Of a stretch of DNA of 64,000 bases, positions 17,698 through 62,685 are shown one piece after another. The notes below the pieces were generated by a model. The model did not search any database. It worked only from the letters and a program-made list of their open reading frames with translations, and was not told where the DNA came from. A program made the translations under genes and the position numbers. The DNA lies in the IMG/VR virus record IMGVR_UViG_3300029740_000238, one strand, 5' to 3'. Position 1 is the stretch's first letter. Each line of letters starts with the position of its first letter. This DNA comes from a virus. Its lineage: Duplodnaviria > Heunggongvirae > Uroviricota > Caudoviricetes.

Positions 17698-17731
17698 ACA
17701 GGCACCAATCGGGTGACCTGTCTTTTTTGTT
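17698..17731 (+). terminator. Leader hairpin plus T-run between the promoter-like motif and the 17769 gene
   Basis: GACAGG ... CCTGTC stem followed by TTTTTTG. Confidence 0.45.
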
Positions 17732-17768
17732 GCAAGACCGCGTAATGCGGAGAAAGTCGAGAAAAGCT

Positions 17769-18119
17769 ATGAACACCATTATGAACACCGCCGAATTCAT
17801 CCGCGTTACCGACCTCCTGAAGAAGGAGAAAATTGCCAAAAATAGCGTCAACATATTTGCCGCTATGATGGCGATGCGCGAGAACCGCCCCGAAGCAATC
17901 TGCGCAGATGGCTTTAAGATGTCTATCCAGGCATCCGAAGACCACTACTGCCAGAAGGACGACGAGGGGAGCTACGTGAGCGTAGAAGTCGGGTTCCCGT
18001 CTCCGTCCGAGCCATTGCTCGACGAATATGGTGATGACGGAGTGTACGGCTATGTGCCGCTCACTGTTGTCGATGCCATCATCGCCAAGCACGGTGGAAT
18101 CCTGCTCGATGAGCAGTAA
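17769..18119 (+). CDS. Small hypothetical protein
   Basis: 116 aa. Its N-terminus (MNTIMNTAEF) resembles the N-termini of the two downstream paralogs. Confidence 0.5.
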   Translation: MNTIMNTAEFIRVTDLLKKEKIAKNSVNIFAAMMAMRENRPEAICADGFKMSIQASEDHYCQKDDEGSYVSVEVGFPSPSEPLLDEYGDDGVYGYVPLTVVDAIIAKHGGILLDEQ

Positions 18120-18252
18120 GCCACTCTATCCAATTCCAGCATGACATTCGGCTGCACGCCGTATGCTCATATATGAAGCAGTTATCGTAAAAATGATAGC
18201 TGCTATTTTTATTTTACAAGCCTCGAAAATACGAGGAGAAAGAGAGTTTGCT

Positions 18253-19413
18253 ATGAAAACCGCTATGAACACCAACATCAACACCAACACTACCAATTCC
18301 AAGAAAGTTATCCCCGGCATCAATGACGTGGCTACCAAATGCCCTAAGGTCGCTGCCATGTGGAGTGACAAGAACACCTTCTCTCCCAGTAAAGTGGCTG
18401 CGGGAAGCAGAAGAAAGTTCACATTTGTTTGCCCAGACTGTGGGCAGGAATTTGAAAGCAAAATCTTTAGTGTTGTTCGTTCGGTAATGAACGGTAACAC
18501 TGGTTGCCCTGTTTGTGCAGGTAAAAAGATTGTTTCCGGCATCAATGATGTGGCTACTAAGTGCCCTATGGCCGCTGCCATGTGGAGTGACAAGAACGCT
18601 TTCACTCCCAGTGAAGCACCTGCAGGAAGCCACAAAAAAGCCATTTTTGTGTGTCCTGATTGCGGACAAGAGTTTGAGTCTTCCATTTGCAATGTCGTCA
18701 ACTCTTTGATGCATTACCGCACCGGTTGTCCCGTTTGTCGTGGCTTGAAAGTGGTTTCCGGAATCAACGACTTGGCTACTAAGTGCCCTGCAGCAGCCAA
18801 CATGTGGGGCAGCAAAAACGCTTGCTCTCCAAATGAGGTATCTGCAGGCAACAACAAAATGGCATGGTTTGTCTGCCCCGACTGCAAACAGGAGTTTAAG
18901 GCTCCCGTTTGCAACGTCGTCAATTCTTTGTTGCATGACAATACCGGTTGCCCTGTTTGTGCAGGTCGCAAAGCTGTTTCCGGCGTCAACGATTTGGCGA
19001 CCATGTATCCAAAAGCCGCTGCTATGTGGAGCGGCAAGAACGATTACGCCCCCAGCAAAATTCCTGCTCGGTCGTCCAGACGCGCAATTTTTGTGTGCCC
19101 CGATTGCAAACAAGAGTTTGTGACAAGCATCCACAACATGACGCGGGCTATTGCATCCGGTGTTACTTGCTGCCCCAATTGCAGAATGCGAGGACATACT
19201 ATCGGTGCGATTTACAAGGATGAGTATGGTTCGCCGAAATCTGTTGGCACTACGATGACGATGAAGGACGGCAGCAAAGCCACCTGCACCGCTTATCATG
19301 GTGTCAACAACATCACCGTCGAGTTCGAAGACGGGTTCGTTCTGTACCATGCTCGCTGGAATCAGTTTATCCGTGGCGCTCTTCACCACGGTCAGAAAAC
19401 CACTGAAGAATAA
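18253..19413 (+). CDS. Protein with four tandem ~70-aa zinc-ribbon repeats (GINDxATKCP ... W ... KN ... CPDC ... GCPVC)
   Basis: Internal repeats were seen directly. RBS GAGGAGAAAG. Paralogous to the next gene. Confidence 0.7.
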   Translation: MKTAMNTNINTNTTNSKKVIPGINDVATKCPKVAAMWSDKNTFSPSKVAAGSRRKFTFVCPDCGQEFESKIFSVVRSVMNGNTGCPVCAGKKIVSGINDVATKCPMAAAMWSDKNAFTPSEAPAGSHKKAIFVCPDCGQEFESSICNVVNSLMHYRTGCPVCRGLKVVSGINDLATKCPAAANMWGSKNACSPNEVSAGNNKMAWFVCPDCKQEFKAPVCNVVNSLLHDNTGCPVCAGRKAVSGVNDLATMYPKAAAMWSGKNDYAPSKIPARSSRRAIFVCPDCKQEFVTSIHNMTRAIASGVTCCPNCRMRGHTIGAIYKDEYGSPKSVGTTMTMKDGSKATCTAYHGVNNITVEFEDGFVLYHARWNQFIRGALHHGQKTTEE

Positions 19414-19542
19414 TAAAAAGCCATCTGATACGAAGTTGGCTTGTGAATGTGAATGTAGCAGCTATCATCTTCCTCCAGTAGGGGGATGGTCGCTGCTTTT
19501 TTATTACAAGCCTCGAATGTTACGAGGAGAAAGAGAAAAATT

Positions 19543-21102
19543 ATGAATGCTTTTATGAATGTTATGCACACCACCACCTGCAACTGCACTGCTTGCACGA
19601 CTGTTCCGACTCTTGGCATTAAGATGCCGTATGAGGAAGAGGAAAAGAAAGCTACTAAAACTAGAAAGACTCGCCAAAAACTGATTGTTGGAGAAAACGA
19701 TTTGGCTACGGTCGCTCCTGAAGTTGCCGCAATGCTGAGTGAGAAAGATAAGCACTTTGCTTTTGAAGTTACTGCTGGAAGCAACAGGAAACTTACTTTT
19801 GTCTGCCCTGACTGCAAGAAAGAGTTTGAGGCTAAAATTTGCAGTGTCACAATAGCAGTTTGCCCATGTCCTTATTGCCGCAAAGTAAAAAAAGCGCGTC
19901 GCAATCCGAAACCTATTGTTGGAGTTAATGATTTGGCTTCGCAATGCCCGCAGGCTGTAGCAATGTGGAGCGAAAAGAATAAATGCTACCCAGCAGAAGT
20001 TTTCGCCCAAAGCACTAAGACTGCAATTTTCAATTGCCCAAAATGTAAGCACGAATTTGAGACGACTGTCACATCCTTTGTGAAAAGCATCAAAAAATCG
20101 AAAGGCAATACTACTGGCTGCCCTATCTGTAATGGGACTAAAGTTGTTGTTGGCTACAATGATTTAGCTACGACCTGCCCCCAAGTAGCTGCTATGTTAA
20201 GCAAAAAAAACGCTGACTTTGCAACAAAGTACACTATGGGAAGCAATGCGGTTGCAAGTTTTACTTGTCCTGATTGCAAAAAAGAGTTTGAGGCTAAAAT
20301 TTGCAAAGTCACAAATGTAGTTTACCCATGTCCTTATTGCCGCGATACGAAAATTCTCGCTAATCATATGGATTTGGAAACTTACTTAAAGAAAAATAAT
20401 CGAGAGGATATTCTTAACTGTATTCGTCCAGATAGTCCGTATCAGGCAAGTGAAGTTTCTTATTCCAGCAACAAAACATTATTTCTTAATTGCCCTGAAT
20501 GTGGTAATAAATGGGTGATTTCAGCTAATTATCTGACTGCACAAGGCATTAGTTATATGTGTGGTAATTGTAATCAAACGACAAATTTTATTTCCAAACC
20601 AGAGCAGTATGCTGTTCGTATTGCAATGGGTTTTGCAAGGGAAAACGGAGTTCCAAATGCATTCGATGAAGTTCGTCACATTTTTGGCTATAACAACAAA
20701 TATGGTGTAGATTTTGTCGATAACACTCGCAAGGTTTGCATGGAGTACAATGGTGTATATTGGCATAAAGACAAAAAAAGAGTTGATTGCTATAAATTCA
20801 TCAAAATCCATAATGCCGGATATACTTTTATTCGTATACTGGAACCGGGCTTAAAAGCTTTTGACAAAAAATATGACATTGTATTGCCAAAAAACAACAA
20901 ACACGGTAACGAGTATGAATCAAAAATCATGGAGGACCTTGGCTATAAGCTTATTTCTTTATTTGAGGAAATCTATAATTACAAGGCCACTCCTGAAATT
21001 CAAAAATTAGTCGATTTTAAAGAATTCGAAAAGTGGTACGATATTCATCGCAAAAGAATTTCTGCAAAAGCTACCGACAACGCAGCAAAGAAAGCTGCCT
21101 GA
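19543..21102 (+). CDS. Zinc-ribbon-repeat protein with a C-terminal DUF559/Vsr-like PD-(D/E)xK-type nuclease domain
   Basis: Four to five repeats of the same zinc-ribbon unit. The C-terminal region (VDFVDNTRKVCMEYNGVYWHKD ... GYTFIRI) resembles Vsr/DUF559 endonucleases. Confidence 0.65.
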   Translation: MNAFMNVMHTTTCNCTACTTVPTLGIKMPYEEEEKKATKTRKTRQKLIVGENDLATVAPEVAAMLSEKDKHFAFEVTAGSNRKLTFVCPDCKKEFEAKICSVTIAVCPCPYCRKVKKARRNPKPIVGVNDLASQCPQAVAMWSEKNKCYPAEVFAQSTKTAIFNCPKCKHEFETTVTSFVKSIKKSKGNTTGCPICNGTKVVVGYNDLATTCPQVAAMLSKKNADFATKYTMGSNAVASFTCPDCKKEFEAKICKVTNVVYPCPYCRDTKILANHMDLETYLKKNNREDILNCIRPDSPYQASEVSYSSNKTLFLNCPECGNKWVISANYLTAQGISYMCGNCNQTTNFISKPEQYAVRIAMGFARENGVPNAFDEVRHIFGYNNKYGVDFVDNTRKVCMEYNGVYWHKDKKRVDCYKFIKIHNAGYTFIRILEPGLKAFDKKYDIVLPKNNKHGNEYESKIMEDLGYKLISLFEEIYNYKATPEIQKLVDFKEFEKWYDIHRKRISAKATDNAAKKAA

Positions 21103-21158
21103 TAGATTACAAGACCTCTGACGAACTCAGTCGTCTTTTTACATAGATAGCGTTTCCT

Positions 21159-21197
21159 GCCGTTCACCCATAACCGGGTGGGCGGCTTTTTCTTTTG
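21159..21197 (+). terminator. Rho-independent terminator (same GGGTGGGCGGCTTTTTCTTTTG family)
   Basis: GCCGTTCACCC ... GGGTGGGCGGC stem plus T-run. Confidence 0.6.
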
Positions 21198-62116: not shown

Positions 62117-62229
62117 ACAATGAGAGATATTAAGAATTGGGATATATCGGCCGTGACAAGTCGGTATAAAATGTTTTATAATTGCCCTTGCGGTGACATT
62201 TTTGCATCCGCAGCATAAAGGAGAACGAA

Positions 62230-62346
62230 ATGAAAAGGCTTTTGAAAATTATCATTTTTGCCATCCTGGCCGGACTTAGTATTTTCTGGTATACAGAAAG
62301 CCGGAAGCGCCAGGCCATGATTCCGCTCGAATTTCGAGGCGAGTGA
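62230..62346 (+). CDS. 38-aa membrane peptide
   Basis: Strong RBS AAAGGAGAACGAA. Single hydrophobic helix. Confidence 0.4.
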   Translation: MKRLLKIIIFAILAGLSIFWYTESRKRQAMIPLEFRGE

Positions 62347-62347
62347 A

Positions 62348-62560
62348 ATGCGAAAAGACATCAAAATTGTGCTGGAAAGCATCTGGTATCTAATTCTGCC
62401 GGTGTTTATTTTTGTACTTAACATTAGATATTGGCATGGGTATCTAGCGAATCCTGGCTGGTCCTTGACCCATCCGTCATATGTTGTTCTTGGATTTGTC
62501 TTGAGCGCTGCGTTGTGCTTTGAGATTGTATATATCGACATCAAGTTTGGGGAAAAATAG
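62348..62560 (+). CDS. Small membrane protein (70 aa)
   Basis: Two TM helices. Coupled to the upstream peptide ORF. Confidence 0.45.
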   Translation: MRKDIKIVLESIWYLILPVFIFVLNIRYWHGYLANPGWSLTHPSYVVLGFVLSAALCFEIVYIDIKFGEK

Positions 62561-62575
62561 CGCTTGCCAAAATAT

Positions 62576-62609
62576 ACGAACGCCGTACAATGTAAAGTGT
62601 GAACAGATA
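62576..62609 (+). promoter_or_regulatory. Promoter-like motif ACGAACGCCGTACAAT with a downstream GTGTGAACAGATA partner
   Basis: Resembles the 17621 copy. Confidence 0.35.
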
Positions 62610-62645
62610 CTAAGCAATCAGTAGGATTCACAATCTGTATTTTAA

Positions 62646-62685
62646 GCGGACTTATCCCATAGCGGGGTAGGTCCGCTTTTTTTGT
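62646..62685 (+). terminator. Hairpin plus T-run in the leader of the MBL-lipoprotein gene (may also terminate the upstream small genes)
   Basis: GCGGACTTATCCC ... GGGGTAGGTCCGC stem followed by TTTTTTTG. Confidence 0.5.

What the first reader, a model, noticed from the sequence alone, without database searches (positions are those of the whole stretch)
17698..62685. Terminator-like hairpins sit in the 5' leaders directly downstream of the promoter-like motif
At least six loci share the order motif, then a GC stem, then a T-run, then RBS and gene: 17698-17731, 31140-31175, 43373-43410, 49636-49672, 56892-56940 and 62646-62685. This architecture is characteristic of attenuation or antitermination control, or of short sRNAs of roughly 50-90 nt. 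Conjugative elements and phages often gate late genes by processive antitermination.
Basis: partly seen in the sequence, partly recalled or inferred. Interest (0 to 1): 0.75.

Follow-up and report, generated by a model that had tools for sequence, protein, structure and literature searches.

The report
Terminator-containing leaders gate plasmid establishment genes
In a conjugative element of gut Clostridia, about half of the copies of one shared promoter are followed by a conserved terminator hairpin placed before the gene. One class of these leaders is an abundant, apparently undescribed structured RNA that probably acts as a transcription on/off gate for anti-defence and establishment genes.

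Summary
Locus 31140-31175 is different: it is the 3' end of a HEARO/IscB omega-RNA and has no real T-run.

- **Setting.** The window is a conjugative element of Oscillospiraceae-type Clostridia. Its cargo region (17.5-64 kb) carries 19 copies of one promoter, TTGnnn-N5-TGCGAA-N5-TAcAAT.
- **Hairpins.** Eight promoters are followed, before the ribosome-binding site (RBS), by a strong hairpin plus T-run. About one such hairpin is expected by chance. Upstream genes have their own terminators ahead of the promoter.
- **Conservation.** Relatives whose downstream protein is only 50-70% identical keep the hairpins at the same distance, with different stem sequences.
- **Class A leader.** This ~100-nt RNA is absent from Rfam 15. 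It has 199 hits in 0.8 Mb of related human-gut contigs. Stem covariation is strong. A short helix competes with the terminator. An RBS and start codon follow 110 of 116 copies, ahead of at least 27 unrelated gene families (SSB, methylase and others).
- **Reading.** The most likely function is transcription attenuation with conditional read-through; the trigger is unknown. No Q, NusG or ConAn-like factor is visible.
- **Candidate factor.** A 628-aa protein with a mimic of the RNA polymerase beta' clamp is an untested candidate.

The parts
17612..17639 (+). Motif promoter (TTGACG-N16-TACAAT with TGCGAA in the spacer)
17645..17731 (+). Leader with the 5' block TTGTACGACAGATA, then ATTCATAAT, then hairpin 17696-17723 and a T-run. 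It is a weak class A relative. The 116-aa gene starts at 17769.
   Evidence: z -3.1; model R1 gives 16.8 bits, E 0.06
24237..24264 (+). Motif promoter
24296..24329 (+). No gene follows directly; 10-11-bp ACTTGCTA repeats lie downstream.
   Evidence: (z -4.4)
30616..30643 (+). Motif promoter followed by TTGTACAAGAGAAA
30742..30778 (+). Terminator-like hairpin ending a ~135-nt structured RNA. The next motif promoter (30783-30810) follows at once, so this looks like a stand-alone unit.
   Evidence: MFE -47, z -4.3
30881..31141 (+). HEARO (IscB omega-RNA) between promoter 30783-30810 and the flotillin gene 31199-32842.
   Evidence: 89.7 bits, E 7e-17
43311..43338 (+). Motif promoter
43372..43398 (+). 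Leader hairpin plus TTTTTT. The 65-aa membrane-protein gene starts at 43427. A second terminator-like hairpin (43639-43663) lies before the helicase gene at 43680.
   Evidence: z -4.0
49583..49610 (+). Motif promoter
49636..49708 (+). Two tandem leader hairpins (49636-49662 and 49675-49708), each followed by a T-run, before the N6-methylase gene at 49731
   Evidence: (z -7.2)
55746..55773 (+). Motif promoter followed by TTGTACGACAGATA
55818..55853 (+). Its T-run abuts the next motif copy (TGCGAG at 55863).
   Evidence: the same arrangement in L072
56842..56869 (+). Motif promoter
56891..56929 (+). Class B leader hairpin, 21 nt after the -10 element, plus a T-run, before the UvrD-like helicase gene at 56956
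   Evidence: z -6.1. Kept at 21-24 nt with changed stems in L073, L079, L080, L171, L193 and L207.
62564..62591 (+). Motif promoter (TACGAA variant)
62608..62685 (+). Class A leader RNA (ATTCACAAT block, terminator 62644-62678, T-run) before the MBL lipoprotein gene at 62703
   Evidence: model R1 gives 34.6 bits, E 5.7e-6; (z -5.2); orthologous leaders in L073, L079, L080
63882..64000 (+). Motif promoter plus a canonical class A leader (TTGTACGATAGATA...), cut off by the window end
   Evidence: 30.7 bits; 38.2 bits, cut at the 3' end
47471..49357 (-). 628-aa protein with an N-terminal RNA polymerase beta' clamp-like domain and an XRE HTH. It is the only long minus-strand gene between 36 and 59 kb of the cargo region, and it is divergent from promoter 49583-49610. 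Untested candidate trans factor.
39077..39544 (+). Mor/CD3324-family protein with two HTH regions, behind the motif promoter whose TGCGAA starts at 38977. Candidate regulator of the promoter family.

Best explanation
The hairpins are genuine intrinsic terminators built into the 5' leaders of establishment and anti-defence operons. All these operons are driven by one element-specific sigma-A-type promoter that carries a conserved TGCGAA box in its spacer.

**Proposed action.** RNA polymerase starting at the promoter mostly stops after 60-110 nt. The gene downstream has no promoter of its own, so it is made only by read-through.

**Class A (62608-62685, 63915-end; 17645-17731 is a weak relative).** The leader has these parts, in order:
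- a 5' domain closed by the pairing UUGUACGA/UCGUACAA, starting at or next to the inferred transcription start (start sites are not mapped);
- an invariant single-stranded AUUCACAAU block;
- a short linker that can pair with the 5' strand of the terminator, forming an antiterminator;
- the terminator and its U-run.

I infer that a trans factor, either protein or small ligand, stabilises one of the two folds. That would switch the whole regulon, adding a second layer on top of promoter control.

**Shorter leaders (43372, 49636/49675, 56891).** These have no alternative fold. They could only be modulated at the polymerase, or they are fixed attenuators.

**Shown versus inferred.** Shown: position, conservation, covariation, and the link to genes. 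Inferred: termination itself, conditional read-through, and the identity of the trigger.
For: **In the window.**
- Eight of 19 motif promoters have a leader hairpin plus T-run, against about 1.1 expected.
- Counting the window and four relatives fetched through proteins rather than leaders, 22 of 43 motif sites have one. One of these relatives, L072, is a near-copy of the window.

**Conservation in relatives.**
- The helicase leader hairpin stays 21-24 nt after the -10 element while its stem sequence changes. The downstream protein is 50-61% identical where that was measured.
- The MBL leader is conserved at 70-72% protein identity.

**Class A family.**
- Of 117 unique copies, 107 have the promoter directly upstream, 116 have the terminator, and 110 of those 116 have an RBS and start codon 21-70 nt after the stem.
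- Covariance model R1 finds 199 hits at E <= 1e-3 in 811 kb.
- 96.1% of cells are paired against 87.6% when shuffled. There are 329 double-change cells against 98 (0 of 500 shuffles reach this; slid controls give 7-64). Eight of the 12 terminator pairs are compensatory.
- G-U pairs are frequent on the sense strand, which points to RNA rather than template-strand DNA structure.

**Antiterminator helix.**
- In prefix folds, the linker pairs with 5-7 nt of the terminator's 5' strand in nearly all of 30 non-redundant copies.
- The TCG-type linker occurs with 49 of 76 GCGGAC terminators and 0 of 34 GCAGAC terminators. Native duplex energy is -5.9 against -5.32 when partners are permuted (sd 0.10).

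**Regulon-like spread.** The genes downstream fall into at least 27 unrelated clusters, including SSB, N6-methylase and NT5C.
Against: - There are no expression data, and transcription start sites are only inferred from the -10 element.
- The antiterminator helix is weak (5-7 bp) compared with terminators of about -20 kcal/mol. Its covariation test ignores how the sequences are related to each other.
- The invariant blocks were partly imposed by the search pattern used.
- P1 never varies, so it gives no evidence for or against pairing. Its conservation could reflect a DNA operator, since TACAAT-N5-TTGTAC is a palindrome.
- Five of the eight window leaders have no alternative fold.
- No factor has been identified.
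- Eleven of the 19 promoters have no leader terminator, so the terminators are not needed for the promoter family to work.
Confidence: 0.5

Rival explanations
1. The hairpins are fixed, partial terminators. They scale down expression from one strong shared promoter, gene by gene, and insulate neighbouring units. The 5' stem of class A mainly stabilises the mRNA. Nothing is switched.
For: - Five of the eight window leaders have no competing fold.
- Hairpin strength varies from -16 to -28 kcal/mol.
- The genes behind them (methylase, helicases, membrane protein, nuclease-like MBL) could plausibly be toxic at high dose.
- In p576, leader inverted repeats upstream of ardC doubled expression, and the authors suggested this was through transcript stability (PMC6294495).
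- No antiterminator gene was found.
Against: - Class A keeps invariant single-stranded blocks (AUUCACAAU) and a linker that co-varies with the terminator base. A fixed attenuator does not need either.
- The terminator's 5' half is conserved in sequence across unrelated genes.
- The double terminator at 49636/49675 would leave very little expression.
Confidence: 0.25
2. Processive antitermination of the lambda Q or RfaH/LoaP kind. A factor is loaded at the promoter (the TGCGAA box acting as a Q-binding element) or at a promoter-proximal pause. It makes RNA polymerase ignore the leader terminators and the internal ones.
For: - The TGCGAA box sits between -35 and -10 in all 19 promoters, as the lambda Q-binding element does in PR' (textbook knowledge).
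- -10-like hexamers occur in the transcribed leaders (CACAAT/TACAAT in class A; TATAAA/GATAAT in others).
- Serial terminators occur within single units: 43372 plus 43639, and 49636 plus 49675.
- The short leaders leave no room for an RNA switch.
- A beta' clamp-like protein is encoded in the region. The clamp helices are where sigma region 2 and NusG/RfaH dock.
Against: - Pfam and NCBIfam found no Q, N, NusG/KOW, LoaP or sigma family among 58 ORFs of the window that were scanned.
- TGCGAA is equally present at the 11 promoters that have no terminator. It is half of a palindrome (TGCGAaTCGCA) at several sites, which fits a repressor operator better.
- The -10-like hexamers are not distinguishable from the AT-rich background.
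- Only 64 kb of a probably much larger element could be seen.
Confidence: 0.13
3. The short terminated RNAs are the functional products. They would be trans-acting sRNAs or decoys (for example anti-defence RNAs), and the downstream genes get only incidental read-through.
For: - In the window, three units (24248, 30627, 55757) end at a terminator without a gene directly behind. Two of them are followed by another promoter.
- L079 6502(-) and L080 1202 look the same.
- In the census, 10 of 69 non-class-A hairpin leaders lack an RBS and start codon within 90 nt.
- The 5' block is invariant, like an sRNA seed.
Against: - 110 of 116 class A copies are followed by an RBS and start codon at a median of 33 nt.
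- No complementary target for the 5' block or the ATTCACAAT block exists in the window.
- The 5' block is paired in the predicted fold.
Confidence: 0.1
4. The pattern is chance, or the hairpins are simply the terminators of the upstream genes.
For: Intergenic regions are rich in terminators in general.
Against: - The hairpins lie downstream of the promoter.
- Separate terminators precede the promoters at 17565, 24080, 43262 and 55644.
- There is roughly eight-fold enrichment over the window's own density.
- Relatives show conservation and covariation.
Confidence: 0.02

Closest known systems
pLS20 zipper-type leader attenuator cATT (PMC13401043), and terminator/antiterminator expression platforms in general
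   Same: A Gram-positive conjugative element with an intrinsic terminator inside a 5' leader. An alternative pairing involving the terminator's 5' strand can prevent termination. Similar leaders are found on related elements.
   Different: - cATT is a single 456-nt leader ahead of the conjugation operon. Its antiterminator forms when sequences on both sides of a long central stem zip together.
- Here the leaders are 60-110 nt and occur in many copies per element, ahead of cargo or establishment genes.
- The RNA starts at the 5' stem, so nothing upstream is available to zip.
- The competing helix is only 5-7 bp.
Establishment regulons of p576/pLS20-family plasmids (EGeRS2 with the Reg576 repressor; PMC6294495, PMC8708921)
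   Same: - Several separate operons of variable anti-restriction or establishment genes.
- Each is preceded by a near-identical sigma-A promoter with a shared operator-like box.
- The logic would be zygotic induction.
   Different: - The motif is different (TGCGAA in the spacer, against TTATCCC repeats).
- No ribbon-helix-helix repressor was identified here.
- Leader terminators are not part of the described EGeRS2 mechanism.
- The stem-loops in the p576 ardC leader raised expression rather than lowering it.
Processive antitermination in mobile elements: lambda Q at PR', ConAn1/ConAn2 (PMC8191782), Tn916 canT (PMC11658703), HK022 put
   Same: Terminators placed just downstream of an element promoter so that only properly licensed transcripts proceed. 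There is also a conserved box inside the promoter spacer, as with the lambda Q-binding element.
   Different: - No Q- or ConAn1-like gene was found.
- conAn2 is 260-600 nt and canT and put are structured RNAs located upstream of the terminators, whereas most leaders here have only 14-50 nt before the stem.
- Processivity has not been tested.
Countertranscript- or protein-driven attenuation in Gram-positive plasmids (pCF10 prgQ/Anti-Q, pIP501/pT181 rep leaders; BglG/SacY RAT antiterminators); comparison from my own knowledge
   Same: A trans factor decides between a terminator and a weak competing hairpin that overlaps the terminator's 5' strand. The sequence blocks in the leader are invariant.
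   Different: - No antisense RNA gene or complementary sequence was found in the window.
- No CAT/PRD-type antiterminator protein was found.
- The element controls many unrelated operons rather than one.

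Membership tests
Intrinsic (Rho-independent) terminator | G+C-rich stem-loop followed directly by a U-run | tested here: met
   Nine hairpins of -16 to -28 kcal/mol, each with at least 5 T in the next 8 nt. Locus 31139-31154 fails because it has no T-run.
Intrinsic (Rho-independent) terminator | Causes transcript release | not testable with these tools
   Needs Term-seq or in vitro transcription.
Terminator/antiterminator attenuator (riboswitch-like expression platform) | A mutually exclusive helix that uses the terminator's 5' strand | tested here: inconclusive
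   Class A: a 5-7 bp linker helix appears in prefix folds in nearly all of 30 copies. Linker type is associated with terminator type (49 of 76 against 0 of 34), and native duplexes are more stable than permuted ones. However, the helix is weak and sequence relatedness was not controlled. Leaders 43372, 49636 and 56891 show no such helix.
pLS20 zipper-type attenuator (cATT) | Sequence upstream of a long central stem is complementary to the terminator and extends that stem | tested here: not met
   The class A RNA begins at P1. No upstream segment is complementary to the terminator.
Lambda Q-type antitermination | A Q protein gene in the element | tested here: not met
   No antiterminator family was found among 58 window ORFs scanned with Pfam or NCBIfam. 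Only 64 kb of the element could be seen.
Lambda Q-type antitermination | A Q-binding element in the promoter plus a sigma-dependent promoter-proximal pause | tested here: inconclusive
   TGCGAA is conserved in the spacer and -10-like hexamers occur in the leaders. Neither binding nor pausing can be tested here.
ConAn bipartite antitermination | A conAn1 gene followed by a 260-600 nt conAn2 RNA upstream of the terminators | tested here: not met
   Only 14-56 nt lie between the inferred start and the stem. The architecture described in PMC8191782 is absent.
EGeRS2/Reg576-type establishment regulon | Repeated sigma-A promoters with a shared operator ahead of several establishment operons | tested here: met
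   19 promoter copies sit ahead of UmuC-like, AcrVA2-like, NADAR, methylase, helicase and flotillin genes. SSB follows the same promoter and leader in relatives.
EGeRS2/Reg576-type establishment regulon | An RHH repressor (Reg576 family) that binds TTATCCC repeats | tested here: not met
   The motif is different, and no RHH family hit was found in the window.
Any Rfam 15 family | Match to a curated covariance model | tested here: not met
   Window at gathering threshold: only HEARO. L080, with three class A copies, at E <= 1: no relevant hit. L163 and L164, with many copies, at gathering threshold: none.
Stand-alone sRNA gene | Promoter and terminator with no ORF directly downstream | tested here: not met
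   110 of 116 class A copies are followed by an RBS and start codon. The feature is met only for the minority units at 24248, 30627 and 55757.

The most novel reading that the evidence does not exclude
The class A leader is a new factor- or ligand-responsive RNA switch. Together with the shared promoter, it gates the whole anti-defence and establishment regulon of large conjugative elements of gut Oscillospiraceae. Its read-through may be set by an element-encoded mimic of the RNA polymerase beta' clamp (47471-49357) that titrates sigma-A or NusG away from the polymerase.
Probability: 0.15. Interest if true: 0.85.

Novelty: new variant of a known kind. Interest (0 to 1): 0.62.

Why it matters
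How conjugative elements of Gram-positive gut bacteria time the burst of anti-defence and establishment genes after entering a new cell is largely unknown. The known examples are single-strand promoters in F-like plasmids and the Reg576 repressor in Bacillus plasmids.

This element adds a possible second, RNA-level checkpoint. The checkpoint is copied in front of dozens of unrelated cargo genes and is very common in human-gut metagenomes.

If read-through is conditional, three things follow:
- The leader is a compact, portable regulatory part.
- It is a marker for finding establishment and anti-defence genes of unknown function.
- It gives a handle on the signal that tells a plasmid it has just arrived in a new host.

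Tried and rejected
- **Near-identical DNA in phage and plasmid collections.** Megablast of 43-63 kb found no match. The class A leader also found no match in PLSDB with sensitive blastn.
- **Promoter motif in IMG/VR.** There were 69 single-copy hits, consistent with chance, so the motif is not a phage promoter.
- **Genome scan with the MBL protein.** Of 80 loci, only L080 carries the motif. The rest are chromosomal MBL genes with ordinary upstream regions.
- **Antisense partner or target for the conserved leader blocks.** Nothing exceeded chance in the window.
- **HEARO as a conserved leader of flotillin genes.** Not confirmed in L079 at the gathering threshold.
- **Single-stranded-DNA (Frpo-like) promoter reading.** Rejected. 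The promoters are ordinary duplex -35/-10 promoters, and the many G-U pairs lie on the sense strand.
- **Leader-peptide attenuation.** Rejected. There is no RBS or ORF in the leaders.
- **The beta' clamp-like protein as the TGCGAA binder.** Its 40%-identical homologues sit in similar regions that lack the motif, so it is not the motif-specific factor.
- **Most conserved ORF clusters across 125 sources (the window and 124 related loci).** None stood out as a regulator from an unannotated listing. The Mor/CD3324-like family was picked up separately from its window member.
- **Exact-protein look-up of the VirB4-like ORF.** It failed, probably because the start codon choice differed.

Full report
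**Observation**

I read the six loci. Five have the stated order: promoter-like motif, G+C-rich stem, T-run, RBS, gene.

The motif is real. TGCGAA-N5-TAnnAT occurs 22 times at <=1 mismatch, against 5.8 expected. Aligned, the sites read TTGnnn-N5-TGCGAA-N5-TA(C)AAT, which is a sigma-70/sigma-A-type promoter with a 16-nt spacer holding an invariant box. A weight matrix built from 19 of these sites scores them at 26-40 bits, and the next best site in the window scores 15 (the matrix was trained on those sites). None lies in 1-17.4 kb, and 18 are on the + strand.

A scan of the 150 nt after each site found a single strong hairpin plus T-run after eight of them:

|---|---|---|
| 17623 | 17696-17723 | yes |
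| 24248 | 24296-24329 | no |
| 30627 | 30742-30778 | no |
| 43322 | 43372-43398 | yes |
| 49594 | 49636-49662 and 49675-49708 | yes (first hairpin only) |
| 55757 | 55818-55853 | no |
| 56853 | 56891-56929 | yes |
| 62575 | 62644-62678 | yes |

An Rfam HEARO RNA (the IscB omega-RNA) occupies 30881-31141 (89.7 bits). The small stem at its end is not followed by a T-run.

With 42 comparable hairpins on the + strand of the whole window, about 1.1 are expected in the 19 leaders; nine are seen. Leader folds have z-scores of -2.3 to -7.2. Upstream genes have their own terminators ahead of the promoters (17565, 24080, 43262, 55644). The leader hairpins are therefore not just terminators of the preceding gene.

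**Context**

- **Conjugation genes.** The left end encodes a type IV coupling protein and a VirB4/TraG-like ATPase.
- **Nearest plasmids.** The closest plasmid relatives of the ATPase are megaplasmids of Subdoligranulum and Vescimonas, at 38% identity.
- **Nearest genome.** The only genome-collection relative carrying the motif is a Clostridiales MAG from the human gut (L080).
- **Cargo.** From 17.5 kb onward the genes are almost all on the + strand: DUF4379 zinc-ribbon proteins, a UmuC-like polymerase, flotillin, a PLD nuclease, an AcrVA2-like protein, NADAR, a ResIII helicase, an N6-methylase with HsdS, a UvrD-like helicase and an MBL lipoprotein.

This gene content and the single orientation resemble the leading or establishment regions described for plasmids (PMC11541004, PMC8708921). 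That label is an inference: no relaxase or oriT is in the window.

**Conservation in relatives**

Homologues of the UvrD-like helicase at 50-61% identity led to loci L072-L079. These carry the same promoter motif.

Upstream of the helicase there is a hairpin 21-24 nt after the -10 element. Its base is kept and its upper stem differs:
- window: GTGCCCTGGCGG...CTGCCGGGGCAT
- L073: GTACCCTGATGG...CTGTCAGGGTAC
- L079: GTACCCCGGTAG...TTGCCGGGGTAT
- L080: ACCCTGGCGGCTG...CGGCTGTCAGGGT

The MBL gene leader is likewise conserved in L073, L079 and L080. Over the window and four relatives fetched through proteins, 22 of 43 motif sites carry a leader terminator. One of these relatives, L072, is a near-copy of the window.

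**A leader RNA family (class A)**

Several leaders share three features: TTGTACGA(T/C)AGATA five nt after the -10 element, the block ATTCACAAT, and a terminator whose 5' half reads (A)AGGC(G/A)GACTT.

- **Abundance.** Many are labelled human gut, and one 12-kb stretch has five copies.
- **Context of the copies.** Of 117 unique copies, 107 have the promoter matrix (>=15 bits) directly upstream and 116 have a terminator hairpin (median -21 kcal/mol, ending about 100 nt from TTGTAC). Of those 116, 110 are followed by an RBS and start codon 21-70 nt later, median 33. The promoter, terminator and gene were not part of the search pattern.
- **Fold.** One copy folds at -45.4 kcal/mol, z -7.6. The 5' UUGUACGA pairs with UCGUACAA, enclosing one or two small hairpins; a free linker and the terminator follow.
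- **Covariance model.** Model R1, built from 13 seeds, finds 199 hits at E <= 1e-3 in 811 kb of related loci. In the window it finds:
  - 62608-62685 (34.6 bits, E 5.7e-6);
  - 63915-end (30.7 bits, cut by the window end);
  - 17645-17730, weakly (16.8 bits, E 0.06).
- **Covariation.** On the model alignment, 96.1% of cells are paired, against 87.6% in shuffles. There are 329 double-change cells against 98 (0 of 500 shuffles; slid controls 7-64). The inner hairpin and both halves of the terminator carry the compensatory changes. P1 never varies, so it is uninformative.
- **RNA, not DNA.** G-U pairs are frequent on the sense strand, which argues for an RNA structure rather than structure in the transferred template strand.
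- **Not described before, as far as I can tell.** No Rfam 15 family matches, and no paper in the library contains the conserved strings.
- **Downstream genes.** The genes behind 105 copies fall into at least 27 unrelated clusters. These include a tandem-OB SSB, an N6-methylase, an NT5C nucleotidase and the MBL lipoprotein. The leader is therefore a general module, not a sensor tied to one pathway.

**A competing helix**

I folded each class A leader only up to the end of the terminator's 5' strand. The linker just after ATTCACAAT (TTCGC, TCTGC or TGTC) then pairs with the base of the terminator's 5' strand (GGCGGA or GGCAGA) in nearly all of 30 non-redundant copies.

- **Linker type tracks terminator type.** The TCG linker occurs with 49 of 76 GCGGAC terminators and with 0 of 34 GCAGAC terminators. 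In the latter it would create a C-A mismatch.
- **Duplex stability.** Native linker-terminator duplexes are more stable than permuted ones (-5.9 against -5.32 kcal/mol, sd 0.10).
- **What this amounts to.** This is the layout of a terminator/antiterminator choice. The helix is weak, so by itself it should lose to the terminator. Something would have to stabilise it.
- **Caveat.** These tests do not correct for how closely the sequences are related.

**Other leaders**

- **No alternative fold.** The leaders at 43372, 49636/49675 and 56891 have only 14-40 nt before the stem and no alternative fold.
- **Serial terminators.** Unit 43322 has a second terminator-like hairpin (43639-43663) before the helicase gene. 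Unit 49594 has two hairpins in tandem.
- **No gene directly behind.** Units 30627 and 55757 end at a terminator that abuts the next motif promoter. Unit 24248 is followed by 10-11-bp direct repeats, not a gene.
- **Census of related loci.** Of 111 unique motif promoters outside the strict class A pattern, 69 had a hairpin. In 46 of those it lay before any RBS and was followed by one. Many of these are class A variants.

**Search for a factor**

- **No known antiterminator.** Pfam and NCBIfam scans of 58 window ORFs found no Q, N, NusG/KOW, LoaP, sigma, RHH or BglG-type protein.
- **Mor/CD3324-family protein (39077-39544).** It sits behind a motif promoter and recurs in relatives.
- **A 628-aa protein (47471-49357).** This is the only long minus-strand gene between 36 and 59 kb of the cargo region. 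It has an XRE HTH domain.
  - *Sequence.* Residues 110-176 resemble the RNA polymerase beta' clamp helices, E. coli beta' 264-315. NCBIfam rpoC gives E 2.3e-7. PDB phmmer matches 75 chains at E<1, and the 60 listed are all beta' or the homologous gamma subunit; the best is E 4.4e-6.
  - *Structure.* A confident model (pLDDT 85.8) matches beta' over about 230 residues in every one of the 50 best Foldseek hits listed (128 hits at E <= 1e-3).
  - *Family.* It has more than 450 members of about 626 aa, with the NAPDIIL-NE...LEDN motif conserved. Homologues lie in the same inverted position in related cargo regions that use other promoters.
  - *Why it is a candidate.* The clamp helices are the docking site of sigma region 2 and of NusG/RfaH (textbook knowledge). 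NusG stimulates intrinsic termination in Bacillus (PMC8060035). A free clamp mimic could therefore change initiation, pausing or termination. This is a lead only.

**Most likely mechanism**

The hairpins are intrinsic terminators used as leader attenuators on operons that have no other promoter, so gene expression equals read-through. In class A, the conserved single-stranded blocks, the co-varying competing helix and the spread across unrelated genes favour conditional read-through set by a trans factor or ligand. That would act on top of control at the shared promoter box.

| Reading | Probability |
|---|---|
| Conditional attenuation | 0.5 |
| Fixed partial terminators that tune and insulate | 0.25 |
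| Processive antitermination loaded at the promoter | 0.13 |
| The short RNAs as the main product | 0.1 |

**Comparison with known systems**

- **Working analogues.** The closest are the pLS20 zipper-type leader attenuator (PMC13401043), classical terminator/antiterminator platforms, and the factor-driven attenuators of Gram-positive plasmids.
- **Organisational analogue.** The closest is the p576 Reg576/EGeRS2 establishment regulon (PMC6294495, PMC8708921).
- **Membership.** It belongs to none of these:
  - the zipper geometry is absent;
  - ConAn2-size RNAs do not fit;
  - no Q or ConAn1 gene was found;
  - the operator differs;
  - no Rfam family matches.

**Verdict**

The class A leader appears to be an undescribed, very abundant cis-regulatory RNA of gut Clostridia conjugative elements. 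It is a new variant of a known kind. Everything about its function remains inference until RNA 3' ends and read-through are measured.

Noticed in passing
window 47471-49357 (-): A 628-aa protein whose N-terminal ~230 residues model as an RNA polymerase beta' clamp fragment. Residues 110-176 align with the clamp helices (NAPDVIL-NE...LEDN). An XRE HTH domain and a C-terminal domain of unknown function follow. The family has more than 450 members, always in inverted orientation inside similar cargo regions. It could be a decoy for sigma or NusG.
   Followed up: partly
window 30881-31141 (+): A HEARO (IscB omega-RNA) copy driven by a motif promoter (30783-30810) and followed by a flotillin/SPFH gene (31199-32842). 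No IscB gene lies next to it. An IS200/IS605 TnpA plus a TnpB-like pair lies at 33578-35720 (-).
   Followed up: partly
L079 2383-2454: An HDV-like ribozyme (RF02682, F. prausnitzii type, 47 bits) directly after the flotillin gene of a related element.
   Followed up: no
window, all 19 motif sites (e.g. 40187-40197, 54830-54840): At several sites the invariant TGCGAA box is the left half of an 11-bp palindrome, TGCGA-A-TCGCA, lying between -35 and -10. This is the position expected for a dimeric repressor operator. A subset of promoters also has the palindrome (G)TACAAT-N5-TTGTAC spanning the -10 element and the start site.
   Followed up: partly
window 24360-24425: Four to five direct repeats of ACTTGCTA at 10-11-bp spacing, in a ~600-bp stretch where I identified no convincing gene, after the 24296 terminator. 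They look like iterons (origin or partition site?). An extended -10 promoter (TGgTATAAT type) lies at about 24897-24910.
   Followed up: no
window 27352-27394; L280 intergenic regions 4249-4434 and 5767-6027: A recurring hairpin with the core GACTTTAGTCG (CCCGCGACTTTAGTCGTGGG) in unrelated intergenic regions of two different elements.
   Followed up: no
L073-L078 (e.g. L073 1750-7680): Relatives carry a type I-C cas3-cas5-cas8c-cas7 set directly upstream of the helicase promoter. No cas1 or cas2 gene is among the called genes listed for these loci.
   Followed up: no
L280-L282 intergenic regions: More distant elements that carry the beta' clamp-like gene mostly lack the TGCGAA motif. They repeat a different promoter, ttgTGGTATAATATAAA. 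Each element lineage seems to have its own shared cargo promoter.
   Followed up: partly
window 18163-21102: Two adjacent genes encode proteins with four DUF4379 treble-clef zinc-finger repeats each (416 and 538 aa), downstream of the first leader terminator.
   Followed up: no
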